DNA of 32,000 nt from Candidatus Hadarchaeota archaeon (GCA_964514965.1 CAZETV010000001.1:540001-572000); one strand, 5' to 3'; numbered from the stretch's first letter, positions 1-27,175 are shown. Numbers and translations: made by a program. Notes: generated from the sequence alone by a model not told the origin.

Positions 1-109
1 GCTGTTGTCTGAAGCTTGCCGCTCAGGCAAAGGTAGTGAGCTAAGACATTTGTCCGGTTAGCTTCTAGAGGGATTAGAGTTAATAGTTTTACGATTTTAT
101 CAATTACTG

Positions 110-2614
110 GTGAGTAAAATTTCAGAAACTGAGCAACATCGTAGACTAAAGGAGCTTTTAGCTGAAAAACTGAAAGAATGGTTCGGCGTTTGTGTACCAG
201 AGTACCCTTCAGCTGGCCATGAACTGGACATATTTGGCGTCACGCCAGAAGGCGTCTCTATCTATATTGAGATAATATGGTCTCCATCAAGAACTCATTT
301 TTTGAATGACATAAATATGCTTCAACAATCTGATGCAGACGTAAAAGTGGCGATTGCGAGTCCTGAAATAATCTCAAAAGAGGAGTTTCGCAGGGAATTT
401 TCGAAAGTTGCTATTGCGCAGCGTCGCGAAGGGCAAGTATTCCATGGAGAGATGTTGAACGGTGAGAAAATTCTTCAAAACAAGGGTTTTATGGACAGTG
501 ATCTGAAGGGACTCTTTACACAGCTGGTAGCACAAGTAGCACCGTTAAAGAAAAGACCTCCTAGACCAAAGTTAAAGTTCCCCCAACCTCAAATCTCCGA
601 TACTTTGCCTGATGAGATAAGTGACAGACTTCTATCAAACCTGTTTCCGGTAGCCAGTATGCCTAAGTTTCCAGATGTGGAACAACGGCGCTTAATGGAG
701 TTTTTGAACAACGCCCTTTATACGTACCTGAAATCAAACCCGAGTTTGCAACAGCATCCCATATTTAGAAGCACCTATTTTTACAAGCCGGATAATAGCA
801 AGCCGAGGGTGGTCGATGGGCGAATCGTAGCATCGCCAGAATATCTGCCTTCCGGGGAGCTACACTATTGGGTGCACGACTCTGTAACTTTGAGGTTTGT
901 CGCGTTAGAAGAGATGATTTTTCTACTTGTGGAGCCATGTTACGTTTTCACCGAGGATGAGGAGAAGTTACTTCCCAAAGAAAAAGCCGGGCCACTTACA
1001 ACCAAAAAAATTGCCCATGAGTTCAACAGGCAATATTTGCAGCACATAAGATTTTGGATTTCTACTCTCGCAACTGACAAAGATAAAATTACAATACCAA
1101 CTAGTCTGGGCTCGATAGTTATTTCTGTAAGCGAAGCTGGGGTAAGTGTAAACTTTGGGGGGGGGAGTCAGGTGAATTCTCAACATGATTTCCAAAGCTG
1201 GCATGTAAATGAGCCGGAATTGTTTTTCGGAGGCGGTAATAGACATGTCGACCAGAAAATCGGACTCACACTTTACGGGCCAGCCCAGCTTCCTGATAAG
1301 GCCGATCTCATAAAGTCGATTAATGTGGGGATCGTGGGTACAGGTGAAACAGTTGGTCTCGCCGAAATGTGGATGGAAAAACTAAAGCGTGAGATACCAA
1401 GCAAAAAAGAGTCTGTACATTCTCCTTCATTCATGGGATTTGAAAAGACGTTCAATTGCGTACTTAATGTCGCAGATCAATGGAAAGAGATCATCCCTGA
1501 AAAAGAGATACAGCAACTTGCAGATCTAGAAAAATATAAAGATTGCGTAAATAAAGCTGTCGATTTGTTTGTAGAAAGGCTCCAAAGCTTGGTAGAACGA
1601 GAGCCGCGACCGCAAATCGTTATCTGTGCCATACCTCAAGCTCTTATACGTATAATCGGCAGTCGAAAAACATCTGTAGCAGTTCCAGAAGAAAATGATG
1701 TTGCGGATCCTCTACCCGAAGCGATAGATTTCCGGAGAGCATTGAAAGCTAAGGCGATGGGATTTGGGATACCAACTCAGCTGGCTAAAGAGAGTACATT
1801 TACAGGAAAGACGACCACAGAGGAAAGGCCATTACAAGATGAAGCTATGAGAGCTTGGAACTTCTCTGTTGCTCTGTACTATAAGGCTGGAGGGCTTCCG
1901 TGGAGATTGGCAGAGGCTTCTCCAAGGACTTGCTATATCGGCGTATCTTTCTACAGGGAATATTTTCTAAGCGCAGCCAGAACAAGAACCAGTTTAGTTC
2001 AGATTTTTACATATACAGGAGAAGGTCTTGTGTTAAGGGGCGACAGGTTCGAATGGGATAAAAAGATGGGCAAAAGCCCGCACCTTTCGAAACAAAATGC
2101 GTTTAAGTTGCTGAGAGACGCTATGGACGTTTATCAGCGCCACATGGGACAAACACCTGCGAGAGTAGTTATACATAAAAGCTCCCGTTATTGGAGCGAC
2201 GAACTCGCTGGGTTTAGGGAAGCTTGTCAGGGAATCGGCAAAGTCGATTTTGTTTCAGTTGGCAGGCGCGGAATTCGATTTTTGAGGCAAGGCTTGTACC
2301 CTCCTTTGCGTGGTACTGTGATACAGCTGTCCAAGCATAACTATCTGGTCTACACCCGCGGCTATGTGCCCTTATACAGAACTTATCCCGGTCTTCATGT
2401 TCCCCATCCTCTGGAAATACTGGAGCACCACGGTGACTCGGATATTCGAACTGTTTGCAAAGAGATACTTGGATTAACTAAAATGAACTGGAACAATGCT
2501 GACTATAGCATCCGCGAGCCAGTAACTTTACGCTTCTCGCGAGAAATTGGGGCGATTCTCGCTAATGTTCCAGAAGCTGTAAAGCCCAGACCACAATACT
2601 TGTTCTATATGTGA
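110..2614 (+). CDS. Catalytically inactive prokaryotic Argonaute (MID-PIWI) with an N-terminal PD-(D/E)xK-like nuclease-fold domain
   Basis: 834-aa ORF with a GTG start and a TATA-like TTAATAGTTTTA about 25 nt upstream. PIWI hallmarks: ALYYKAGGLPWRL, ARVVIHKSSRYW, YLVYTRGYVPLYRTYPGLHVPHPLEI, EPVTLRFSREIG. MID 5'-end pocket-like motif: DFRRALKAKAMGFGIPTQL. The expected DEDX positions read IGVSF, IHKSS and RFSRE, with no acidic residues, so slicer activity is predicted to be lost. The N-terminal ~120 aa read GHELD(40)IFGV...GVSIYIE(54)IIWS, resembling NucS/Mrr/DREN-type nuclease cores but with E-I-I instead of E-x-K. Confidence 0.8.
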   Translation: MSKISETEQHRRLKELLAEKLKEWFGVCVPEYPSAGHELDIFGVTPEGVSIYIEIIWSPSRTHFLNDINMLQQSDADVKVAIASPEIISKEEFRREFSKVAIAQRREGQVFHGEMLNGEKILQNKGFMDSDLKGLFTQLVAQVAPLKKRPPRPKLKFPQPQISDTLPDEISDRLLSNLFPVASMPKFPDVEQRRLMEFLNNALYTYLKSNPSLQQHPIFRSTYFYKPDNSKPRVVDGRIVASPEYLPSGELHYWVHDSVTLRFVALEEMIFLLVEPCYVFTEDEEKLLPKEKAGPLTTKKIAHEFNRQYLQHIRFWISTLATDKDKITIPTSLGSIVISVSEAGVSVNFGGGSQVNSQHDFQSWHVNEPELFFGGGNRHVDQKIGLTLYGPAQLPDKADLIKSINVGIVGTGETVGLAEMWMEKLKREIPSKKESVHSPSFMGFEKTFNCVLNVADQWKEIIPEKEIQQLADLEKYKDCVNKAVDLFVERLQSLVEREPRPQIVICAIPQALIRIIGSRKTSVAVPEENDVADPLPEAIDFRRALKAKAMGFGIPTQLAKESTFTGKTTTEERPLQDEAMRAWNFSVALYYKAGGLPWRLAEASPRTCYIGVSFYREYFLSAARTRTSLVQIFTYTGEGLVLRGDRFEWDKKMGKSPHLSKQNAFKLLRDAMDVYQRHMGQTPARVVIHKSSRYWSDELAGFREACQGIGKVDFVSVGRRGIRFLRQGLYPPLRGTVIQLSKHNYLVYTRGYVPLYRTYPGLHVPHPLEILEHHGDSDIRTVCKEILGLTKMNWNNADYSIREPVTLRFSREIGAILANVPEAVKPRPQYLFYM

Positions 2615-2808
2615 ATTTATCGGATAGGTTTACAGATCTGGTACAATAACTTAACTTTGGCAAATCTAGGCTTTTAAACCTCCGATGATGGCTTTTGGCC
2701 ATGACAAAGAACTCTACAAGTTTGAGAGGATGCTTGAGGAAAGCCGATGACAAGCGAACTTAAGTAAACCCAAAAGGGAGCGGGCCGGACGGGACTCGTA
2801 CAGGTTTT

Positions 2809-5735: not shown

Positions 5736-7379
5736 TTATCTTCGATTGATACGACGGTCGCGTAGCTTGGACCAGATACCCCTGAGGGTGTTAACCTGCT
5801 GAGCTGTCAAACCTAACTGATTCATGAGGAGCATTTGGTCGGTCAAATCCAGAACACTCCCTATACCCTCCTTGCTCAGCACCTGATTCAAATAGTCGAT
5901 GTCAAGATTATCAGCTCCTTGAAGGGGGATGGGCAAGCTGGCAATTTCGCTGGGGTACATCTCGAGGACGCCACCTCCGTAGCTACGCCCCATGACCTCG
6001 GAGAAAGCGAAAGTCAACGAGTTGAGGAGCGCGGCGGCTACAGTATTGATATTTGTTTCCCCAACCATCTTGACTCGATGAATGGTGTCAGTGGAGGTGG
6101 CGTCGGTCCGGTTCACAATTATTCTCGGATGCTGATGAATCTGTCGGAGCATGAAACCGTGAGGAATCCACGTAGACGGGACGGTGTACCAGGGGTCTCG
6201 TATTCGGCACTTGTACCCTTCGTGGATACCTTGGTCTTCACCTGACGTTATGTAGGACCTTAGTGATTTATGAAGCTTGTTTTTTGGCTCCGGAGGAATT
6301 TTGAGCAAGAGCACGGGGCGGTTCTTTCGCAGGTCGCTTTCCCAATCATCTTTGCTGAAAACGATGCCGCTGAAGTGGGCTGATCGCGTGACAATGGGCA
6401 CCGTGTAATCTGTAATACCCAACTCTCTCGCCTGGCTCTTTGTCAGAATGAAGAAGCTGTTCTGGCCAGTCACAACCCCTACGTCTATATCAAGGACATC
6501 TTCTCCCCTAGAGATTTCTCTATTCTCTCGCAGTTTTCTCAGAAGGAGAATCTCATCCTTGTCAAGGAAGTATTGCGTCCACTTCTCCCGAGTGTGATCC
6601 ATCGGCTTAACTTCCCGTCTCAGAATCTCATCATGGTCATAGGTTTTGAGGTCCCCCATGTTCCTGAGTTCTACGACGCGAATCCCCGTGGTGTTCGCTC
6701 CGCCACTCTCAGCCAGAAAGAGTACAACTTCCTGTTGGATTCCGCCGAAGACGAGTCGCTCGAAGGTGACGAGGACGATGTTCTTGTAATATGTACTCAG
6801 GAATTCCCTAAGCTCAGCTGCGTAGCTGACCTGAAGAAGCTCGGCGGGAATGACCATGCCCAGGCGTCCGTGCTCTTTCAGCAAGAGCGTTGACCCGACG
6901 AGAAATGGCATCCAAGTATTTGTCAATCTGCTAGGATGGAGACCTGTGCTACGCATCAGCTCCATCGCAATCTCTCGTTGCTTCTTCGGAAAATTCTGAT
7001 AGCGGATAAAGGGGGGGTTACCAACTACAGCGTCAAAAAGGTCACGTTTCATCAGACGGGCACGGCAATACTCAAAGAAATCCCCCGTTCGAACAATCTC
7101 CCTAGCGCCCTGAATCCCTAACATTCGTAGGCGTTTCCTAGCCTTCTCGGCTTCCTTGGGGTTGAGCTCAACCGCCCTAATCTGACTGCTGAGGGAATCC
7201 TTCGCCTCTAGACTTGCAAGTCTTTCGGTGACAAATCTCAAGAACACGCCGTCGCCGCAGCCCGGCTCGAGGACTTTTGCGTTGGCGGACTGAACCGTCC
7301 AGTTCGTGATGAACTTCGCAAGAGGGTCTGGTGTGTAGTAACCCCCACGCAGTTTCTGAGGTGACGGCTCGGTTTTCAT
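5736..7379 (-). CDS. N6-adenine DNA methyltransferase (Eco57I-family/gamma-class, companion methylase)
   Basis: SAM motif VLEPGCGDGVFLRF and catalytic motif VVGNPPFIRYQNF, followed by a C-terminal target-recognition region. The start overlaps the upstream gene's stop (ATGA at 7376-7379). Confidence 0.8.
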   Translation of the reverse strand: MKTEPSPQKLRGGYYTPDPLAKFITNWTVQSANAKVLEPGCGDGVFLRFVTERLASLEAKDSLSSQIRAVELNPKEAEKARKRLRMLGIQGAREIVRTGDFFEYCRARLMKRDLFDAVVGNPPFIRYQNFPKKQREIAMELMRSTGLHPSRLTNTWMPFLVGSTLLLKEHGRLGMVIPAELLQVSYAAELREFLSTYYKNIVLVTFERLVFGGIQQEVVLFLAESGGANTTGIRVVELRNMGDLKTYDHDEILRREVKPMDHTREKWTQYFLDKDEILLLRKLRENREISRGEDVLDIDVGVVTGQNSFFILTKSQARELGITDYTVPIVTRSAHFSGIVFSKDDWESDLRKNRPVLLLKIPPEPKNKLHKSLRSYITSGEDQGIHEGYKCRIRDPWYTVPSTWIPHGFMLRQIHQHPRIIVNRTDATSTDTIHRVKMVGETNINTVAAALLNSLTFAFSEVMGRSYGGGVLEMYPSEIASLPIPLQGADNLDIDYLNQVLSKEGIGSVLDLTDQMLLMNQLGLTAQQVNTLRGIWSKLRDRRINRR

Positions 7380-10300
7380 TCCTCCTCGACCCCCCTTAGC
7401 TTGCGTGAGAGTTCTTCTAGGACCCCCACATCCTCTTTGTTAACCTCGTAGAACTCTTCGATTGTCTCGTCTAACTTCTTTCTCAGTTGCGTCAGGAGTC
7501 GCTGATAGCGTGTTTTTGTCTGGGGCGTTTGGGCCTTCTCCCATTTCGCGGTCACATCTATGAGTTTGGTCGTGAGCGAGACGATTTTCTTGTAGAGTTC
7601 CGCTTCTCCTTTGTTGTTCTCGTCCGTCAGCTTGATGGGAAGGTCCTTAATGAACTGCTTACCGTGGGAGTAGTACCCTCCTCTGAACTTGCTCGACCGC
7701 TCCTCGACCATTGCCTCGAAGACAGGATGCGACAGGACTGCCTGCAGGTAGTGGATTGAGATTTCGCTATCATCCTTAGGTCTGAGAGCGTAGTATGGAC
7801 CGTTCCCCCCTCCGGTGAATAGGATGTTGTGATCGTCGTGAACATATCGTGGTTCGAGCGAGAGGATTGGCCAGATGAGCTTGTCTCGTCCGTCGAACTT
7901 GGTTAGGCTCTGGGATCGGCCGAATCTGTACCAGGTTTCTGGGGTGCCCCCCTGGATGCTTCTGTCCTCAATTAGTTCGTCTCGGTAATCCTGTAGGTAT
8001 TTCCAACACTCTGGGAAGTTCTCCTGCATTTCTCTGGGCGTGTAAACTATTGCGCGCCCGCTCTTTACCTTATAAGGGAAAATAATGTACGTGTTGGCCT
8101 TTGGCGTTCCAAAGCACTCTAATGGGGCATCCAAGAGCGAAGGCCTCACAATTGCTTTTTCGACCTTCCTTGGGGTGCCGTCCTTGTCCGTAAAGTGTAT
8201 GTAGTTATCGGTCTCCTTTTCCGGCCTAAATATGTAGATTTCGTCTGCGCTGGTCTGGACGCCTACGAAGATGTTCGCGACTGATTCCAACGTAGCCGGG
8301 TTCTCCTGATTCAGGCGCCCGAAGAGTTCCTTCACACTTGGCGGGAGGAACACCCATGGTTCCTCGGATATGTCATCAGCATTGTACTCTTCTGTTACCC
8401 CTCGTCGTTCGTATTTCCACGCAGATAGGTCCGGGACATGCTCAACGACGAACCGTTCTGCGGGTGCATTGCCCAAGATGAGGATGCACGTGTAGGTTGT
8501 ACTGCGCGGATGGAAGACTTGCTGGACTCCGAAGTCGACGAAGCACCGAAGGTTCTTACCTTCGGAGATTAGCTTGCGGAGAGCTTTTCCAGACTTAATC
8601 TTGGTAAACTTGTGAGGCACGATGTATCCGAGGACGCCGTCTTCGGTCAGCAAGGAAACCGCGCGTTCGATGAAGAGAGCATATTTGTCGAAGTTGTCGC
8701 TCTTGGATGTCTCATAAGGGCACTTTCCACTCTGGTAGAAAGATACCTCCTCGGGGGTGTATTTGACCATATTCTGGATGCGGATGTAGGGGGGGTTGCC
8801 AACAATGATGTCGAAGCCGCCTTCCTTAAAGATTTCAGGGAAAGCATCCCTCCAGTCTAATGGGTTGATACTCCTCAGGAGGTTCTCATCATCTAGACCA
8901 TCGGGATTGAATTTAAGATAAGACGAGGTGTCCACCAAGCTGTTGCCACACTGAATGTTGTCGCTCAGGTTGGGGAGGGCTTTTACCCTATGGCGTTCGA
9001 GATGATCCTTGATTGTTGCGGCAGTCTCATTTTCTAACGTTTTCAGTAGCAGACTGAATCGGGTTACCTCGGCGGCTTGTATGTCGATGTCTACGCCGAA
9101 GATATTGTTCAACAGTATCCGTTGCTTTTCTCGTAGCGTGAGGTACCACTGGTCTTGCGGTCCCCTGTATAGTTTGTCCTTGTGCTTCTCGGAACCATCT
9201 TTGAGATACCACTCACGATGGTAGTTGAGGAGATGTTCGTACGCAGCAAGCAAGAATGTCCCAGAGCCGCAGGCGATGTCTGCTACATGTAGCGACGACA
9301 AGTGGTCAGGTGTCTTCCCGTCGCAAGCCGAAGCAACTGTCTGATCAGTAATGTAGTCAACGATGAATGATGGGGTTGGGATAACGCCGGACTCGACCGC
9401 CTCTGGCTTATCCTCAATCTCGACCTTTCTTCCCTCACCGAGTCGTACCTCTTTGCCGAGAAACAGCTCGTAGATTTCACCTAAGACTGTTGCGTCCATG
9501 ACCGAGAAAGCGTACGGGCTTTCGGGGTAGTAGAGCTCCTGAAAGATCTGGATCAGGTTGTCGCTACCCACCTCGACATCGAGGGAGAGTTGGTCCTCAA
9601 CGAAGTCGAAAAGGCCTGAGTTGTATCGTTTGTCGGTTTTGAGAAAGAGCTCCTTGAGTTCGTCATATGACTCAACCTTCTGGAGTCTCTTGTACTTCTC
9701 GAGTTCTCGATCCTCACATATCCTCAAAAAGACGATTCGGTTTATGAGCCTCTGTACGAGAAAGTTGAGCGTATCCTGCGCCAGCGAGGGGTTGCGCGTT
9801 GCTAAATCCTTAGCGAGTGCTTCTCGCCAGCCCTCTATCTGTCGGAGGAAGTAGTCGTCGAACGGTTGGGTTCCCTCGATCTCCCTCTCAACATCGAATA
9901 CCTTGTCAAACCGGCCGCTATAGACAGATTCCCTTGACAACTGTTCATAAATCTCGTCGAACTTCTGGACGTATTCGTTGTAGCTATAAATCTTGAGACG
10001 AGCTACACGGACATCGTCCTCTGGTTTTGGAAGGAAGCGACAATCGTAGATGACGAGGTGCTCGAAGTTGGTCAATACGGATACAGGAAGGCGAGCCGTC
10101 CATCCATATCTCCGAAGCTGGAAAGCAGGCTGCTTATTCCTCTCGATGTGAACCGAGGGTTTTTTTGCCTCGACGAAGAGCTTCCGCTTTCCAGCGACTC
10201 TCAGACCGTAGTCGGGCTCTTTGGGTAGCTGACCGCTCTCTTCCTCGGCCTCCACCGATGTCCCGTGAATAACTTCCCTCAGGTGGAGTGGAGCACCCTT

Positions 10301-10474
10301 CTTGTTTTCCACGTCCCAGCCTAGGAGCCTGAGCAAAGGGTCGATGAACTCCTGCCTTGTCTGGATTTCTTTGTAAGCCGCGTCAGAGCGAACATACTGG
10401 TTGCGATTCCGTTCGTACTTCTCCACTAGCTCACGGAGTTCGGCCATCATAGCTTCTCGAACTACGTCTGCCAC
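7376..10474 (-). CDS. Type IIG restriction-modification enzyme (fused PD-ExK endonuclease + N6-adenine methyltransferase, Eco57I-like)
   Basis: 1032 aa. N-terminal nuclease motif EPDYGLRVAGKRKLFVEAKKP (PD...EAK). Methylase motif I VADIACGSGTFLLAAYEHL. Motif IV IIVGNPPYIRIQNM. Confidence 0.8.
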   Translation of the reverse strand: MADVVREAMMAELRELVEKYERNRNQYVRSDAAYKEIQTRQEFIDPLLRLLGWDVENKKGAPLHLREVIHGTSVEAEEESGQLPKEPDYGLRVAGKRKLFVEAKKPSVHIERNKQPAFQLRRYGWTARLPVSVLTNFEHLVIYDCRFLPKPEDDVRVARLKIYSYNEYVQKFDEIYEQLSRESVYSGRFDKVFDVEREIEGTQPFDDYFLRQIEGWREALAKDLATRNPSLAQDTLNFLVQRLINRIVFLRICEDRELEKYKRLQKVESYDELKELFLKTDKRYNSGLFDFVEDQLSLDVEVGSDNLIQIFQELYYPESPYAFSVMDATVLGEIYELFLGKEVRLGEGRKVEIEDKPEAVESGVIPTPSFIVDYITDQTVASACDGKTPDHLSSLHVADIACGSGTFLLAAYEHLLNYHREWYLKDGSEKHKDKLYRGPQDQWYLTLREKQRILLNNIFGVDIDIQAAEVTRFSLLLKTLENETAATIKDHLERHRVKALPNLSDNIQCGNSLVDTSSYLKFNPDGLDDENLLRSINPLDWRDAFPEIFKEGGFDIIVGNPPYIRIQNMVKYTPEEVSFYQSGKCPYETSKSDNFDKYALFIERAVSLLTEDGVLGYIVPHKFTKIKSGKALRKLISEGKNLRCFVDFGVQQVFHPRSTTYTCILILGNAPAERFVVEHVPDLSAWKYERRGVTEEYNADDISEEPWVFLPPSVKELFGRLNQENPATLESVANIFVGVQTSADEIYIFRPEKETDNYIHFTDKDGTPRKVEKAIVRPSLLDAPLECFGTPKANTYIIFPYKVKSGRAIVYTPREMQENFPECWKYLQDYRDELIEDRSIQGGTPETWYRFGRSQSLTKFDGRDKLIWPILSLEPRYVHDDHNILFTGGGNGPYYALRPKDDSEISIHYLQAVLSHPVFEAMVEERSSKFRGGYYSHGKQFIKDLPIKLTDENNKGEAELYKKIVSLTTKLIDVTAKWEKAQTPQTKTRYQRLLTQLRKKLDETIEEFYEVNKEDVGVLEELSRKLRGVEEE

Positions 10475-22949: not shown

Positions 22950-23056
22950 GTGCGGCCGGCGGGATTCGAACCCGCGCAGCAGGCTTTTCCCGAGCATTCA
23001 TGGGAAGCCTGAGTCCTTTGGCAGCATTTGCTTTAACCAGACTGGACCACGGCCGC
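22950..23056 (-). tRNA. tRNA-Gly(CCC) with two introns (D-loop and canonical 37/38)
   Basis: Minus-strand read of the tRNA arms. Acceptor: GCGGCCG / CGGCCGC, with discriminator A73. D stem: GTCC / GGAC, enclosing about 17 extra nt that include the hairpin AGCA-AA-TGCT. Anticodon arm: stem CAGGC, loop TT-CCC-A, then a 15-nt insert TGAATGCTCGGGAAA whose GGGAA pairs with TTCCC, then A and GCCTT. T arm: GCGGG-TTCGAAT-CCCGC. C2:G71, G3:C70 and A73 fit Gly identity. No encoded CCA. Confidence 0.8.
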
Positions 23057-23193: not shown

Positions 23194-23988
23194 CTAGAGC
23201 CGTTCCCGCGCGACCTGAGTGAGTTCGGTCTTTGTCAGCAACCCCACAAGCTCTCCTTCAAAGTTCAGCACGGGGAGGGTGGAGAATCTACGCTCGAACA
23301 TGAGACGCGAAACTTCTGGGAGTCTGGCATCCGTTCGCGTCGTCGTGGCCGGCTGGGTCATGATTTCCTTTACTAACAAATTTCTGATGTGCTCACTCTT
23401 TTGCTGATTTGGAACGGCTCCCTGAAAAGCTGCGAGCTTCATTGCCACGTCTCGCACCGTTACGACGCCGACAAGCTTTCCATCCTCCATGACCGGCAAA
23501 CCGATTAAATCCTCATCGAGCAACAGCCGCCGCGCGTGAACAACCCGATCTCCCGGCGAAACGGTCGTCGGGCTGGCCTGCATCACCTGCCCCACATAAA
23601 CATCTTCGTACTCCGAGCAAACCTTCGCGAAGTCCAGCTTGGTCACGATGCCAGAGAGGTGCCCCTCCTCGACTACTGGAAGTCCACTGATGTCGTGGTC
23701 GAGCATGATCTCGGCAGCCCGCTTCACCATTACTTCCGGGGCCACTGTGATCGGGTTAAGGGTCATCACATTCGAGACGTATATCCGGTCGAGAGACAAG
23801 CGATAAGCTGTGCTCGACCCCATCTCACGAGCGATGTCCTTCTCGGTAATCACGCCCACGATTTTTCCCGTCTGAAGCGCTACGAGGCGAGAGATTTCTT
23901 TCTGTTGCATCAAATCGATCGCGTTCGCTAAAGGCTGATCCTTGTCAAGCGTCACGACGGGCGAGCTCATGATTTGGCTAACACGCAT
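23194..23988 (-). CDS. CBS-domain protein (four CBS repeats)
   Basis: Repeated CBS signatures: IMSSPVVTL...ISRLVAL, GVITEKDI, ISGLPVV, GIVTKLDF, LIGLPVM, GVVTVRDV. Confidence 0.8.
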   Translation of the reverse strand: MRVSQIMSSPVVTLDKDQPLANAIDLMQQKEISRLVALQTGKIVGVITEKDIAREMGSSTAYRLSLDRIYVSNVMTLNPITVAPEVMVKRAAEIMLDHDISGLPVVEEGHLSGIVTKLDFAKVCSEYEDVYVGQVMQASPTTVSPGDRVVHARRLLLDEDLIGLPVMEDGKLVGVVTVRDVAMKLAAFQGAVPNQQKSEHIRNLLVKEIMTQPATTTRTDARLPEVSRLMFERRFSTLPVLNFEGELVGLLTKTELTQVARERL

Positions 23989-23997
23989 TTAAACCCC

Positions 23998-24813
23998 TCA
24001 AACCAACAACTCCAACAGATCATGCTCAGTTATTATCCCCTTGAGTTCATCTCTCTCGACTACCGGCACGCAGCCGCACCCGCGCTCACACATGAGCCCC
24101 GTGGCGTCCCCAAGGTCGGTCTCAGGTGCCACGGTCAACACGTCACGAGTCATTATCTCTTCAACACCTACAGACATCGCTTCGTCTACGCGTTGCGAGA
24201 GCATGTGCTCGAACACCTTACTCGTTCCGAAGTAACGCAAGATGTCAACGCTCGTGACAATCCCAGCAAGTTCTCTTTCGCGTACCACGGGCAGGCGTCG
24301 AACTCCTCTAGAAATCATCCTTCTTGCCGCTTCACGAATTTGAAGTTCGGGCTCAGCTGTGATCACATGGCGGGTCATGTAATAGCTCACGGGTGTCCCA
24401 GTCTTGGCCGGCACATAGGTTATGAAATCGCGCTCCGAGACGATACCAGCAATCTGTCCATGCTCGTCAAGAATAGGTATCCCCCCAACACCTGTTTGGA
24501 GAAGGAGCTTCACGGCATCTATTATAGACATGTCGGTGGTACCGTGGATTACCCGCTCGGACATAATAATCCGCACAGGCTCGTTAGCCGCAGCGAAGAA
24601 ATTGCCCTTTAACTTCTCCTGCACAATTCTGAATTTTTCGCCTCCGCCCAAGAAGTCTATGATGTCTCGCGTGCGGATGATGCCCATGAGTTTTTTGGTA
24701 CCGGGGGTCGCCACAGGTAACCTCCGCACACCCCGCTCAATCATGAGCTCGGCCGCATTCTTTATCTGCATTGTCGGAGGAACTGTTATAACTAGTTTTC
24801 GCGCGAGCGACAT
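23998..24813 (-). CDS. CBS-domain protein (four CBS repeats)
   Basis: CBS signatures: VRRLPV (twice), GIIRTRDI, GIVSERDF, GIVTSVDI, GIITEHDL. ATG 24813 (SD GGAAGGG upstream) is preferred over the track start at 24909, which overlaps the upstream gene. Confidence 0.75.
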   Translation of the reverse strand: MSLARKLVITVPPTMQIKNAAELMIERGVRRLPVATPGTKKLMGIIRTRDIIDFLGGGEKFRIVQEKLKGNFFAAANEPVRIIMSERVIHGTTDMSIIDAVKLLLQTGVGGIPILDEHGQIAGIVSERDFITYVPAKTGTPVSYYMTRHVITAEPELQIREAARRMISRGVRRLPVVRERELAGIVTSVDILRYFGTSKVFEHMLSQRVDEAMSVGVEEIMTRDVLTVAPETDLGDATGLMCERGCGCVPVVERDELKGIITEHDLLELLV

Positions 24814-24898
24814 GATGTTCCCTTCCTCTCGATGGCGTCTCGACTTGAAAGCCAGCGGTCCACGTTTGATAGACTTGTAATGGGGAAATCTCCGCACC

Positions 24899-25714
24899 CT
24901 ACCACCCACATGCTACTCTTACAATATCTGAACGACTCACAATTCCCACGAGGTTGCCCTCATCGACGACTGGGAGCCTTCCAACGTTGCGTTTGAGCAT
25001 GACTTCGATGGCTTCGGTGAGAGGCACCTTGGGAGAAACGGTTATCGCGGGAGTGCGCATGAGATTTCGCACCTTGGTAGATGGACGCCCACCCTTTGCC
25101 GATTCCTCTGCCAATCGAATTTCTCCTGAGCGAATTATGTCCGAGCGGGTTACCATGCCGACTACCTCGAGCTTGTGTTTTTGCTTGTCGTAGCGTGTTA
25201 CCGGCACACCCGAATAGCGATTTTGTTCCATGATGCCCCAGACGCGAGATATCTCGTCATCTCGTTCGCAAATTACAACCTTCTTGACCATGACGTCCCC
25301 GACCGTAAGCTTCGACTTCATCCTCTCCACAATTTTGAGGATGTCATCCAGCTTGATGAGTCCGATCACAGTTTTATCGCTGTAGCTCTGAACCACCGGC
25401 ACATTTGATATCCCAAGCCGGACCATGTCTTTTGCAATCTTAGCTAAATCGCTTGCGGGGGTTGCGATGAGTTGTGAAGGGAACATGAGACCTGCGACGG
25501 GGATGTTGGAGCGGGTTGAGGTAATGCGAATGATTTGTTGGGCAGTGATGATTCCCTCGAGCCTCCCCCCATCGATGACGGGAAGGGCTCGAAAGCCGCT
25601 CGAGCGCATGACTGCCCGAGCTCTGGTGATTAGGTCCCGTGAGCTAACAAAAATGAGGCAGGGCTGCATCACATCGCTGATGCTGACCCGCATGAGCAGG
25701 CCCCGGCATGCCAT
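24899..25714 (-). CDS. CBS-domain protein (four CBS repeats)
   Basis: CBS signatures: FRALPVI, GIITAQQI, ISNVPVV, GLIKLDDI, YSGVPV, GMVTRSDI, VGRLPVV, GIVSRSDI. Confidence 0.8.
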   Translation of the reverse strand: MACRGLLMRVSISDVMQPCLIFVSSRDLITRARAVMRSSGFRALPVIDGGRLEGIITAQQIIRITSTRSNIPVAGLMFPSQLIATPASDLAKIAKDMVRLGISNVPVVQSYSDKTVIGLIKLDDILKIVERMKSKLTVGDVMVKKVVICERDDEISRVWGIMEQNRYSGVPVTRYDKQKHKLEVVGMVTRSDIIRSGEIRLAEESAKGGRPSTKVRNLMRTPAITVSPKVPLTEAIEVMLKRNVGRLPVVDEGNLVGIVSRSDIVRVACGW

Positions 25715-27056: not shown

Positions 27057-27175
27057 GCCGGAGTAGCTCAAGCGGTCCGAGCGCGAGACTCATAACCTTA
27101 CTAGCGGTTGTGAGTGCTGATTTACGAGATGATGTGAGAAATCTCGAGGTCGGGGTTCGACTCCCCGCTCCGGCA
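27057..27175 (+). tRNA. tRNA-Met(CAT), elongator type (tRNA-Ile2 not excluded), with a 46-nt intron at 37/38
   Basis: Acceptor GCCGGAG / CTCCGGC with A73. D arm GCTC-AAGCGGTCC-GAGC. Anticodon stem CGAGA / TCTCG with loop CT-CAT-A|intron|A (CAT at 27091-27093). T arm CGGGG-TTCGACT-CCCCG. Intron is about 27095-27140. G1:C72 argues against an initiator tRNA. Confidence 0.9.

What the first reader, a model, noticed from the sequence alone, without database searches (positions are those of the whole stretch)
110..2614. Slicer-dead Argonaute fused in one polypeptide to a PD-(D/E)xK-like N-terminal domain
**Seen in sequence.**
- The C-terminal ~430 aa are clearly MID-PIWI (KAGGLPWRL, GIPTQL).
- All recognisable catalytic-tetrad positions lack Asp/Glu (IGVSF, IHKSS, RFSRE).
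- The first ~120 aa have the alpha-beta-beta-beta layout of restriction-endonuclease-fold domains: helix RRLKELLAEKLKEWF, strand HELD40IFGV, strand SIYIE54IIW. The usual E-x-K lysine is replaced (E-I-I).

**Established knowledge.** Inactive pAgos work with an effector. Known cases are SIR2/TIR/DREN-APAZ partners in SPARSA/SPARTA/SPARDA, nuclease/SIR2/TM partners of long-B pAgos, and Aga1/Aga2 with SiAgo.

**Inference.** This protein may carry its own nuclease effector: nuclease, then an APAZ-like or N/L1/PAZ*-like linker (aa ~130-400), then MID-PIWI. As far as I know, this archaeal architecture has not been characterised experimentally.
Basis: partly seen in the sequence, partly recalled or inferred. 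Interest (0 to 1): 0.8.

Follow-up and report, generated by a model that had tools for sequence, protein, structure and literature searches.

The report
Archaeal short Argonaute with new nuclease-like partner
This is an archaeal short-Argonaute defence module whose partner protein carries an undescribed restriction-endonuclease-like domain; all 13 related loci examined encode two genes, and only one extra G in a run of nine Gs joins them into one protein here.

Summary
- aa 355-834: catalytically dead short-pAgo MID-PIWI.
- aa 175-349: APAZ.
- aa 1-147: a high-confidence restriction-endonuclease-like fold, with invariant D40 and E54 but no beta-3 lysine.

The "single polypeptide" rests on one nucleotide. 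The junction is a G9 run (1157-1165), the longest homopolymer in the window. Removing one G restores a 354-aa effector-APAZ gene ending at the TGA of GTGA and a 480-aa pAgo starting at GTG. Every related locus examined has that two-gene layout, including the closest at 87% DNA identity. Of the 120 best pAgo relatives, only this protein is longer than 533 aa.

So this is a two-component short-pAgo system of the nuclease-associated kind. It probably works like SPARDA or SPARHA. Here it is either fused by a recent G-tract slip or mis-assembled.

What is new is the effector. It is a small family absent from Pfam, NCBIfam and PADLOC. It also sits at the N-terminus of archaeal STAND NTPases. Nuclease activity is inferred, not shown. 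Verdict: new variant of a known kind, moderate interest.

The parts
43..109 (+). Conserved non-coding leader of the cassette. It contains an A/T-rich TTAATAGTTTTAC element about 20-30 nt upstream of the GTG start, a possible archaeal promoter.
   Evidence: DNA homology to L001 starts at window 43. The conserved block is visible in alignment A8. The promoter role is inferred only.
110..2614 (+). Single 834-aa ORF as it reads in the window: effector-APAZ fused to pAgo.
   Evidence: An identical 834-aa protein, P0001, is on record from NCBI and Logan.
110..550 (+). N-domain, aa 1-147. Restriction-endonuclease-like (PD-(D/E)xK-type) fold and the presumed effector. Conserved residues: E6, H10, K14, E31, G36, D40, E54, W57, D67, K79.
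   Evidence: AF2 mean pLDDT 94.1. Foldseek PDB and BFVD hits are all restriction-endonuclease-fold proteins. Conservation. No Pfam, NCBIfam or PADLOC model matches it.
554..631 (+). Flexible linker, aa 149-174.
   Evidence: pLDDT below 50 for aa 149-173 in the aa 1-358 model.
632..1156 (+). APAZ domain, aa 175-349 (equivalent to N-L1-L2 of long pAgos).
   Evidence: PADLOC APAZ-partner (Aga_*-PNTD1-PNTD2) models match aa 190-348 (E down to 1.7e-17). phmmer hit to the HNH-APAZ chain 9om4_A. All 50 top Foldseek PDB hits are APAZ chains.
1157..1165 (+). G9 homopolymer at the gene junction. It holds one G more than the two-gene reading needs. In relatives this is the G-rich ribosome-binding stretch of the pAgo gene.
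1172..1175 (+). GTGA: latent pAgo start codon (GTG, V355) overlapping the latent stop (TGA) of the upstream gene. Relatives have ATGA here.
1172..2614 (+). Short pAgo, MID-PIWI, aa 355-834, with the catalytic tetrad lost.

Best explanation
**What it is.** Window 43-2640 is a compact, horizontally mobile short-Argonaute defence cassette of the nuclease-associated (S2B-like) kind. Its normal form is two overlapping genes.
- Gene 1 is an effector-APAZ protein of about 354 aa. It has a new restriction-endonuclease-fold N-domain, a flexible linker and an APAZ domain.
- Gene 2 is a catalytically dead MID-PIWI short pAgo of 480 aa.

**The fusion.** In this genome one additional G in the G-rich ribosome-binding stretch between the genes (G8 to G9) puts both in one frame. 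The result is a single-chain effector-APAZ-MID-PIWI protein of 834 aa. I estimate about 65% that the extra G is real in the organism and about 35% that it is a homopolymer error.
- If it is real, the fusion is recent and probably still functional. It joins the APAZ C-terminus to the MID N-terminus, the same connection as in long pAgos and in SIR2-APAZ-pAgo fusions.
- The pAgo could still also be started internally at GTG 1172.

**Mechanism, inferred by homology with SPARDA and SPARHA.**
1. The pAgo/APAZ core loads a short guide, probably RNA.
2. Binding of complementary invader DNA remodels the core and drives oligomerisation.
3. Oligomerisation brings the N-domains together and switches on indiscriminate nucleic-acid cleavage.
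4. The infected cell is killed or arrested.

**Shown versus inferred.** Shown: domain identities, the split state of all relatives, the nature of the junction, and purifying selection. Inferred: guide and target type, oligomerisation, and nuclease activity of the N-domain.
For: **pAgo and APAZ identity.** HMM and PDB sequence matches come, and structural matches. Bit scores against solved short pAgos rank SPARHA (286) and SPARDA (264, 260, 239) above SPARTA (about 171-177) and SPARSA (93.5). Long pAgos score 35 or less.

**N-domain fold.**
- AF2 mean pLDDT is 94.1.
- Foldseek PDB hits are MmcB-like 3dnx (E 5.6e-4), NucS 2vld, EndoMS 5gke, SfsA, Exo5, Cas4 and Card1.
- Many of the BFVD hits are uncharacterised or unnamed; most of the named ones are Mrr, MmcB-like, VRR-NUC, DUF559, Holliday-junction resolvase or Cas4 proteins.
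- D40 and E54 are invariant. Given the strand boundaries, they should sit opposite each other on strands beta-2 and beta-3. That is my inference; no coordinates were available.

**Effector role.** The same domain sits at the N-terminus of nSTAND3, NACHT and other STAND NTPases. That is the usual effector position. In the aa 1-358 model it is joined to APAZ by a disordered linker, as described for DREN in SPARDA (10.1101/2025.04.08.647717).

**Split ancestry.**
- L001-L004, L005-L007, L008, L010, L011, L012, L013 and L014 all have two genes, with junctions from -16 to +12 nt.
- Deleting one G gives an upstream ORF ending ...NFGGGVR*, matching the GGGVR* end of L001, plus a 480-aa pAgo.
- Between window and L001 the only non-triplet indels are the G-run and one at the start codon.
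- 119 of the 120 best pAgo relatives are 402-533 aa.
- None of the N-domain family proteins retrieved except P0001 carries a PIWI.

**Functional constraint.** dN/dS against L001 is 0.10-0.17 in all parts.

**Cassette boundaries.** Homology with L001 stops at 43 and 2640.

**Assembly quality.** The other homopolymers of 7 or more nt that fall inside ORFs lie in intact ORFs. The same 834-aa product is also flagged as present in a Logan assembly of sequencing reads.
Against: - No reads were available, so G9 versus G8 cannot be settled. G9 is the longest homopolymer in the window and is the kind of site where assemblies err.
- The N-domain lacks the canonical beta-3 lysine (E54-I-I). Its similarity to known nucleases is at fold level only: TM about 0.4-0.5, Foldseek E about 1e-4 to 1e-3, hhalign against a NucS_C protein 0.9% probability. 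No Pfam hit appeared at E up to 10 in 40 members.
- I could not inspect model coordinates. Whether K14 or K79 reaches the D40/E54 site is unknown.
- No full-length or complex model was obtained.
- Guide and target preferences are extrapolated from bacterial systems whose pAgos match this one at E 5e-84 and weaker.
Confidence: 0.8

Rival explanations
1. The fusion is a sequencing or assembly artefact. The organism has G8 and makes two proteins, an ordinary two-gene operon. The 834-aa protein does not exist in vivo.
For: - The frame change sits in a G9 run, the longest homopolymer in the window.
- One G fewer reproduces the relatives' gene ends exactly.
- The fusion is unique among 120 close pAgo relatives and among the N-domain family proteins retrieved.
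Against: - The other homopolymers of 7 or more nt that fall inside ORFs lie in intact ORFs, including 800-aa and 1032-aa ones. The assembly is therefore not generally frameshift-prone.
- The identical 834-aa product is also flagged as present in a Logan read assembly.
- G8 tracts do slip in vivo.
Confidence: 0.35
2. This is a dedicated, selected single-chain nuclease-APAZ-pAgo architecture. It would be a distinct archaeal class comparable to the S1A SIR2-APAZ-pAgo fusions.
For: - The ORF reads through.
- The order effector-APAZ-MID-PIWI is the one used by known fusions (PMC9097488).
- The internal start has changed from ATG to GTG. That would be tolerated after fusion.
Against: - No second fused example exists in about 5.8 billion clustered proteins or among the 150 N-domain matches in a 1.8-billion-protein representative library, checked.
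- The nearest relatives, at 87% and 76% DNA identity, are split.
- The fusion adds no linker and rests on one base in a slippery tract.
- GTG is also a valid start codon.
Confidence: 0.1
3. The N-domain is not a nuclease. It would be a degenerate restriction-endonuclease fold that has lost catalysis and now serves as a nucleic-acid-binding, oligomerisation or signalling module. The toxic output would then come from something else.
For: - The canonical lysine is absent.
- The superfamily contains inactive members that act as structural or binding units (PMC3424549).
- There is no sequence-level link to any characterised nuclease.
Against: - D40 and E54 are invariant at the canonical acidic positions.
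- E6, H10, K14, E31 and K79 are at least 90% conserved across a family that has only 42% mean column identity.
- Relocation of the lysine is documented in active members, for example Pa4535 with the motif PD-EXX-K (PMC3424549).
- The domain occupies the effector slot in both APAZ and STAND proteins.
- No other effector gene is conserved next to the operon.
Confidence: 0.25
4. The G tract is a hypermutable switch. By slipped-strand mispairing, or by transcriptional slippage, it toggles the locus between heterodimeric (G8, G10) and single-chain (G9) forms.
For: - G8 to G9 is a typical slippage length.
- An A-to-G change relative to L001 (GGGGGAGG to a G run) created the uninterrupted tract.
- All three tract lengths leave a translatable pAgo.
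Against: - The tract is interrupted in every relative examined, so it is not a conserved feature.
- There are no population data.
- No functional difference between the forms is known.
Confidence: 0.1

Closest known systems
SPARDA (short pAgo plus DREN/DUF4365-APAZ, clade S2B)
   Same: - An inactive MID-PIWI short pAgo.
- A partner with an N-terminal PD-(D/E)xK-fold domain joined by a flexible linker to APAZ.
- The pAgo matches SPARDA pAgos at E 1.9e-77 to 5.6e-70.
- The APAZ model matches the DREN-APAZ chains 9qcc, 9qbq, 9qbp and 9vx6.
   Different: - The effector is not DUF4365. There is no Pfam hit, and no SPARDA chain appears among the top 50 structural matches of the N-domain alone.
- The canonical lysine is missing.
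- The host lineage is archaeal.
- The two genes are fused here.
SPARHA (short pAgo plus HNH-APAZ)
   Same: It gives the best sequence match for both halves. For the pAgo this is 9om4_B (E 5e-84). For APAZ it is 9om4_A (phmmer E 1.6e-4; Foldseek 26% identity, rmsd 3.3 over 164 columns). Its effector family is also shared with STAND NTPases (PMC12738770).
   Different: The effector fold is HNH (beta-beta-alpha-metal), not restriction-endonuclease-like. SPARHA is bacterial and always has two genes.
Clade S1A SPARSA-A (SIR2-APAZ-pAgo single chain)
   Same: A single polypeptide in the order effector, APAZ, MID, PIWI.
   Different: - The effector there is a SIR2 NADase.
- The fusion is clade-wide and old (PMC9097488, PMC6299218). 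Here it is in one genome and rests on one base.
- The pAgo here is far closer to S2-type pAgos: SPARSA 8in8_C scores 93.5 bits against 286 for SPARHA.
NucS/EndoMS C-terminal domain and MmcB-like proteins (PD-(D/E)xK superfamily)
   Same: They are the best structural matches of the N-domain (3dnx, 2vld, 5gke; MmcB-like viral proteins). They share the hairpin pattern G-x-E-x-D-hydrophobic ... hydrophobic-E.
   Different: There is no detectable sequence homology (hhalign probability 0.9%). NucS has E-x-K where this family has E-I-I. The extra invariant H10 and the conserved K14, E31 and K79 are specific to this family.
Antiviral STAND/NLR-like NTPases with N-terminal nuclease effectors
   Same: The identical N-domain (33-51% identity) heads nSTAND3-HEAT, NACHT-pentapeptide-TFIIB-like and NTPase-TPR proteins.
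   Different: Those proteins use an NTPase and repeat sensor instead of the guide-loaded pAgo/APAZ core. None of them has been characterised.

Membership tests
Short prokaryotic Argonaute (MID-PIWI only) | MID and PIWI domains only, with no N or PAZ domain in the pAgo polypeptide | tested here: met
   aa 363-834 cover PADLOC pAgo_I 3-455 of 455. Relatives are 402-533 aa stand-alone proteins. The upstream part is APAZ, not N-PAZ.
Short prokaryotic Argonaute (MID-PIWI only) | The DEDX catalytic tetrad is lost | tested here: met
   The motifs GVSF (aa 611-614), HKSS (689-692) and RFS (808-810) stand where active Agos have GxDV, RDG and YA(H/D) (plus established motif knowledge). The same non-acidic residues align with the inactive SPARHA pAgo. 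I did not make a direct alignment to an active Ago.
Short prokaryotic Argonaute (MID-PIWI only) | Encoded with, or fused to, an APAZ protein | tested here: met
   APAZ lies immediately upstream in the same frame here and in a separate gene in all relatives.
APAZ domain | Sequence and structural similarity to the APAZ (N-L1-L2-like) domains of SPARTA, SPARSA, SPARDA and SPARHA partners | tested here: met
   PADLOC APAZ-partner (Aga_*-PNTD1-PNTD2) models give E 1.7e-17 to 1e-8 on aa 190-348. 9om4_A gives E 1.6e-4. All top 50 Foldseek PDB hits are APAZ chains, with E down to 4e-11.
SPARDA | The effector is a DREN (DUF4365) nuclease domain | tested here: not met
   No DUF4365 or any other Pfam hit for the protein or for 40 family members at E up to 10. 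No SPARDA chain is among the top 50 structural matches of the N-domain.
SPARDA | Guide-RNA and target-DNA dependent filament formation and collateral DNase/RNase activity | not testable with these tools
   This needs biochemistry and cryo-EM.
SPARHA | The effector is an HNH nuclease | tested here: not met
   The N-domain model has an alpha-beta-beta-beta-alpha-beta restriction-endonuclease-like core. Only the APAZ part matches the HNH-APAZ chain.
S1A single-chain short pAgo systems | Effector-APAZ-MID-PIWI in one polypeptide as a conserved clade feature, with a SIR2 effector | tested here: not met
   It is one polypeptide here only. All relatives are split. The effector is not SIR2. The pAgo is closer to S2-type pAgos.
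PD-(D/E)xK (restriction-endonuclease-like) superfamily | Alpha-beta-beta-beta-alpha-beta core fold | tested here: met
   The AF2 model has mean pLDDT 94.1 with that element order. The top structural matches in PDB, and most of the named ones in BFVD, are members of the superfamily, with modest scores (TM 0.4-0.5).
PD-(D/E)xK (restriction-endonuclease-like) superfamily | Acidic residue in strand beta-2 and (D/E)-x-K in strand beta-3 | tested here: inconclusive
   D40 (beta-2) and E54 (beta-3) are invariant, but the K position is Ile or Val in all members. K14, K79 and H10 are conserved candidates for a relocated catalytic residue. Their geometry could not be inspected because no coordinates were available.
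PD-(D/E)xK (restriction-endonuclease-like) superfamily | Metal-dependent phosphodiesterase activity | not testable with these tools
   This needs an enzyme assay.
Long-B pAgo | N-L1-PAZ*-L2-MID-PIWI in one ancestral polypeptide, with a separate effector gene | tested here: not met
   Long pAgos score 35 bits or less, against 240-286 for short pAgos. aa 175-349 is APAZ without a PAZ* insert. Relatives are split at the APAZ/MID boundary.

The most novel reading that the evidence does not exclude
The N-domain founds an undescribed family of immune effector nucleases. Its active site would be non-canonical: invariant H10, D40 and E54, plus conserved E6, K14, E31 and K79, with no beta-3 lysine. Uncultivated archaea (Bathyarchaeia, Hadesarchaea, Conexivisphaerales, Heimdallarchaeota) would plug this domain interchangeably into guide-directed short-pAgo sensors and STAND NTPase sensors. 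In this genome a genuine G-tract slip would have produced the first single-chain nuclease-APAZ-pAgo outside the SIR2 clade, a natural one-protein programmable collateral nuclease.
Probability: 0.3. Interest if true: 0.6.

Novelty: new variant of a known kind. Interest (0 to 1): 0.45.

Why it matters
**Why it matters.**
- Short-pAgo systems with nuclease effectors (SPARDA, SPARHA) are a current focus, both as abortive-infection immunity and as programmable nucleic-acid detection tools.
- All systems with solved structures that matched here are bacterial, and APAZ proteins were once reported as almost exclusively bacterial (PMC6299218).
- This locus and its relatives show a sizeable archaeal radiation of such systems with an effector domain that no library describes. 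The same domain is reused by archaeal STAND NTPases. That gives a concrete new candidate nuclease to test and a case of effector sharing between sensor platforms.
- If the one-base fusion is real, it is a natural experiment. It would show that a heterodimeric nuclease-type short-pAgo system tolerates being a single chain, which is convenient for engineering.

**Why it is not a bigger find.**
- The overall logic (dead pAgo, APAZ, swappable N-terminal effector) is established.
- Recent literature already notes "additional uncharacterized effectors" in clade S2B (PMC12738770).
- The headline feature, the fusion, is a single-genome, single-nucleotide event.

Tried and rejected
**Searches and jobs that failed or gave nothing.**
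- Exact look-ups of the window protein, of P0001 and of a neighbouring window protein found no contig on record. The source record, upstream context and reads could not be seen.
- The genome-contig scan did not recover the source genome. It returned only 4 distant archaeal MAG loci.
- A full-length structure prediction was not possible. MAFFT misplaced the unpaired halves. I modelled aa 1-358 instead.
- Model coordinates are not exposed, so active-site geometry could not be measured.
- The N-domain had no significant or consistent match in Pfam, NCBIfam, PADLOC or PDB sequence profiles; the isolated weak Pfam hits look like noise.
- hhalign of the family against a NucS_C protein gave 0.9% probability. 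I used it only to illustrate the motif.
- The sigma-70 promoter and terminator scan was uninformative for an archaeon.
- Literature searches for APAZ with Bathyarchaeota, and for Mrr-, REase- or SMEK-APAZ names, found nothing relevant.

**Readings considered and rejected.**
- Long-B pAgo with an ordinary N-L1-PAZ*-L2: rejected.
- DREN or HNH effector: rejected.
- A conserved extra effector gene upstream. The 541-aa gene of L001 is absent from the other loci, and homology with the window ends at position 43.
- A decaying pseudogene: dN/dS is 0.10-0.17 and both halves are intact.
Full report

Yes. Window 110-2614 (+) is an uninterrupted 834-aa ORF with a GTG start. An in-frame TAG at 59-61 closes it upstream, and no earlier start codon exists (read). 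An identical 834-aa protein (P0001) is on record from NCBI and from a Logan read assembly, on a contig of 1,030,738 bp.

The window is archaeal.
- It carries two intron-containing tRNA genes.
- Its Mre11-like protein clusters at 90% identity or more with a protein of a Hadesarchaea MAG.

**2. Domain anatomy**

*pAgo part.* aa 363-834 match the PADLOC short-pAgo model pAgo_I over its whole length (E 5.8e-159). Bit scores against solved structures rank as follows.

| Solved structure | System | Bits |
|---|---|---|
| 9om4_B | SPARHA pAgo | 286 |
| 9qbp_B, 9qbl_B, 9jsb_A | SPARDA pAgos | 264, 260, 239 |
| several | SPARTA pAgos | about 171-177 |
| 8in8_C | SPARSA pAgo | 93.5 |
| several | long pAgos | 35 or less |

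The positions where active Argonautes carry the DEDX residues read GVSF (aa 611-614), HKSS (689-692) and RFS (808-810). They align with the same non-acidic residues of the inactive SPARHA pAgo. So this is a slicer-dead short pAgo nearest to the nuclease-associated S2B-type systems.

*APAZ part.* aa 190-348 hit the PADLOC models of APAZ-containing pAgo partner proteins (Aga_SIR2-, Aga_REase- and Aga_TIR-PNTD1-PNTD2; E down to 1.7e-17). They also hit the HNH-APAZ chain 9om4_A (E 1.6e-4).

An AlphaFold model of aa 1-358 (mean pLDDT 84.3) shows three parts:
- a compact N-domain, aa 1-147;
- a disordered linker, aa 149-173;
- a well-predicted domain, aa 175-348.

All 50 best Foldseek matches of this model in the PDB are APAZ chains of SPARTA, SPARHA, SPARDA or SPARSA. 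E goes down to 4e-11, and 9om4_A matches at 26% identity with rmsd 3.3 Å.

**3. The N-domain**

*Distribution.* aa 1-147 have no significant or consistent match in Pfam, NCBIfam, PADLOC or PDB sequence profiles.
- A full HMMER scan of 1.84 billion representative proteins found only 150 proteins at E up to 0.001, nearly always with the domain at or very near the N-terminus.
- Some partners are APAZ proteins.
- Others are STAND NTPases: nSTAND3 with HEAT repeats, NACHT with pentapeptide repeats and a TFIIB-like domain, and an NTPase with TPR repeats.
- Further partners are a membrane protein, zinc-ribbon proteins and a 514-aa protein with no recognised domain (P0009).
- The N-terminus is the classical slot of an effector module.

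*Fold.* The model built with 40 family members has mean pLDDT 94.1. Its elements run helix 8-25, strands 27-34, 37-44 and 50-56, helix 61-73, strand 78-83. This is the alpha-beta-beta-beta-alpha-beta core of the restriction-endonuclease fold.
- Foldseek in the PDB returns members of that superfamily at the top: MmcB-like 3dnx (E 5.6e-4), NucS 2vld, EndoMS 5gke, SfsA, Exo5, Cas4, Card1 and I-Bth0305I.
- In BFVD the named hits include Mrr, MmcB-like, VRR-NUC, DUF559, a Holliday-junction resolvase and Cas4.
- Scores are modest, with TM 0.4-0.5.

*Conservation.*
- H10, G36, D40 and E54 are invariant.
- E6, K14, E31, W57, D67, K79 and K99 are at least 90% conserved.
- Given the strand boundaries, D40 (beta-2) and E54 (beta-3) should be cross-strand neighbours, as the canonical D and E are.
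- The canonical lysine two residues after E54 is always Ile or Val.
- A NucS_C-domain protein from locus L012 shows the canonical version of the same hairpin: GWEIDIL...VVVETK against GHELDIF...IYIEII.

Relocation of the lysine to another element is documented in active superfamily members such as Pa4535 (motif PD-EXX-K). Catalytically dead members are documented too (PMC3424549). I rate nuclease activity likely, at about 0.6-0.7, but it is not shown.

**4. The fusion is one nucleotide**

*Relatives are split.* The closest relatives of the C-terminal half are stand-alone pAgos of 478-483 aa: P0002 at 89% identity and P0003/P0004 at 74%.
- On their contigs each is preceded by a separate gene that overlaps it by 4 nt (ATGA).
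- That gene is 350 aa in L001-L004 and 354 aa in L007, with a truncated 285-aa call in L005/L006.
- The L001 gene is 81% identical to window aa 6-352.

*The junction.* The DNA alignment shows TTTGGGGGGGGGAGTCAGGTGAAT in the window against TGT-GGGGGAGGAGTCAGATGAAT in L001.
- The G9 run at 1157-1165 is the longest homopolymer in the 32 kb.
- Deleting one G yields a 354-aa ORF ending ...NFGGGVR* at the TGA of GTGA, and a 480-aa pAgo starting at GTG 1172. This is the relatives' layout, down to the C-terminal GGGVR of L001.
- Across the 2.6-kb homologous stretch, the only non-triplet indels between window and L001 are this one and one at the start codon. All other indels against L007 within the coding region are multiples of three.

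*More distant loci are split as well.*
- Bathyarchaeota MAGs: L008, L010, L011.
- A Conexivisphaerales MAG: L014.
- Metagenome loci: L012, L013.
- Gene gaps range from -16 to +12 nt, and each upstream gene carries the N-domain (E 1e-42 to 1e-70).
- L009, a Heimdallarchaeota MAG contig, ends too soon to show the pAgo.

*The fusion is unique.* A profile search with the pAgo alignment found 2779 relatives. 119 of the best 120 are 402-533 aa, and only P0001 is longer. None of the N-domain family proteins retrieved except P0001 contains a PIWI.

**5. Real or artefact?**

I could not reach the source record or its reads.

For a real G9:
- The other homopolymers of 7 or more nt that fall inside ORFs lie in intact ORFs, including proteins of 800 and 1032 aa.
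- The same 834-aa product is also flagged as present in a Logan read assembly.
- An A-to-G substitution relative to L001 created an uninterrupted G8 tract, which is prone to slip.

For an artefact:
- The fusion is unique.
- It sits at the single most error-prone site of the window.

My estimate is about 65% real. Either way both halves are under purifying selection. dN/dS against L001 is 0.10 for the N-domain, 0.17 for linker plus APAZ, and 0.16 for the pAgo. The locus is therefore not a decaying pseudogene.

A real fusion would probably work. It joins the APAZ C-terminus to the MID N-terminus, the same connection as in long pAgos and in SIR2-APAZ-pAgo fusions (PMC9097488; 10.1101/2025.04.08.647717). 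The GTG with its G-rich upstream stretch could still start a free pAgo.

**6. Boundaries and context**

Homology with L001 runs only from window 43 to 2640 (86.8% identity), and the flanks are unrelated. The two genes therefore move as a cassette. No third gene is conserved next to it.

About 65 nt upstream of the start are conserved with L001 and contain an A/T-rich element at about -20 to -30. This fits the cassette having its own promoter, but that is inferred.

Neighbours in the window:
- a weak, sub-threshold transglutaminase-like match in a predicted membrane protein;
- a PrsW-family protease;
- a DUF365 protein;
- an Eco57I-type restriction-modification pair (5736-10474, minus strand);
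- Rad50 and Mre11 homologues.

**7. Mechanism**

This follows by homology with SPARDA and SPARHA (PMC12205087, PMC12774872, PMC12738770, 10.1101/2025.04.08.647717).
1. The pAgo/APAZ core binds a short guide, probably RNA.
2. Pairing with invader DNA triggers oligomer or filament assembly.
3. Assembly juxtaposes the N-terminal effector domains.
4. Collateral nucleic-acid cleavage follows, then abortive infection.

Shown here: the parts list, the linker, the effector position and the conservation. Inferred: every dynamic step and the chemistry.

**8. Comparison with known systems, and novelty**

The system works like a clade-S2B nuclease-associated short-pAgo system.
- It is not SPARDA, because it has no DUF4365 domain.
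- It is not SPARHA, because it has no HNH domain.
- It is not an S1A fusion, because it has no SIR2 domain and the fusion is not a clade feature.

Recent work already notes "additional uncharacterized effectors" in S2B (PMC12738770). An older survey found APAZ proteins almost exclusively in bacteria (PMC6299218).

New here:
- an undescribed restriction-endonuclease-fold effector family with a non-canonical motif;
- its sharing between archaeal pAgo and STAND systems;
- an apparently large archaeal radiation of such operons;
- a one-base natural fusion.

An archaeal TIR-APAZ/pAgo operon in Nitrosarchaeum (L015, pAgo 45% identical) shows that effectors are swapped within the archaeal radiation.

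**Verdict.** New variant of a known kind, interest about 0.45. Its headline, a distinct fused architecture, does not hold.

Noticed in passing
window 5736-10474 (-); L005 9004-10928: An Eco57I-type restriction-modification pair lies 3 kb downstream of the pAgo cassette: a 1032-aa HSDR_N plus Eco57I/MmeI-type methylase fusion, and a 547-aa M.Eco57I-like methylase. The relatives L005 and L007 also carry an Eco57I-type methylase with an EVE-domain gene next to their cassette, but the proteins are only about 23-39% identical. This is a recurrent defence-island association, not synteny.
   Followed up: partly
window 27057-27175 (+) and 22951-23056 (-): Rfam finds two tRNA genes of 119 and 106 nt (53 and 46.5 bits) that ARAGORN missed. 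They presumably contain introns, as is typical of archaea.
   Followed up: no
window 125-1156 versus 1175-2611, compared with L001: Synonymous divergence from L001 is more than twice as high in the effector-APAZ half (dS 0.75) as in the pAgo half (dS 0.33), although dN/dS is similar. This hints at recombination or partner exchange between the two genes of the cassette.
   Followed up: no
window 120-125; L001 1969: A second 1-nt indel between window and L001 sits at the very 5' end of the first gene. The window starts at GTG 110 (MSKISETEQH), whereas L001 must start five codons later at TTG ((M)ETEQH).
   Followed up: partly
P0010, P0011, P0013, P0039 (about 1010-1060 aa): These archaeal proteins combine the N-domain, a NACHT NTPase, pentapeptide repeats and a C-terminal TFIIB-like cyclin repeat. 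This STAND architecture is unusual, and I did not find it described.
   Followed up: partly
L015 2583-5572 (Nitrosarchaeum MAG GCA_021414365.1): A TIR-APAZ (473 aa) plus short pAgo (523 aa) operon, SPARTA-like, in a thaumarchaeon. Its pAgo is 45% identical to the window's pAgo, so archaeal short pAgos pair with different effectors.
   Followed up: no
L012 5429-9175: Directly downstream of the related pAgo cassette lie a 340-aa protein with a canonical NucS_C nuclease domain and two Endonuc_Holl (PF10107) genes. It is unclear whether they are linked to the pAgo system.
   Followed up: no
window aa 182-192 versus P0007, P0008, P0022, P0028 (alignment A3 columns about 215-295): The window, L001 and L007 proteins lack a segment of about 75 aa between the LSNLFPV strand and the rest of APAZ. 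The segment is present in the 409-467-aa relatives, so two length classes of this effector-APAZ protein exist.
   Followed up: no
window 23194-25714 (-): Three consecutive genes each encode proteins with four CBS domains (264, 303 and 271 aa).
   Followed up: no
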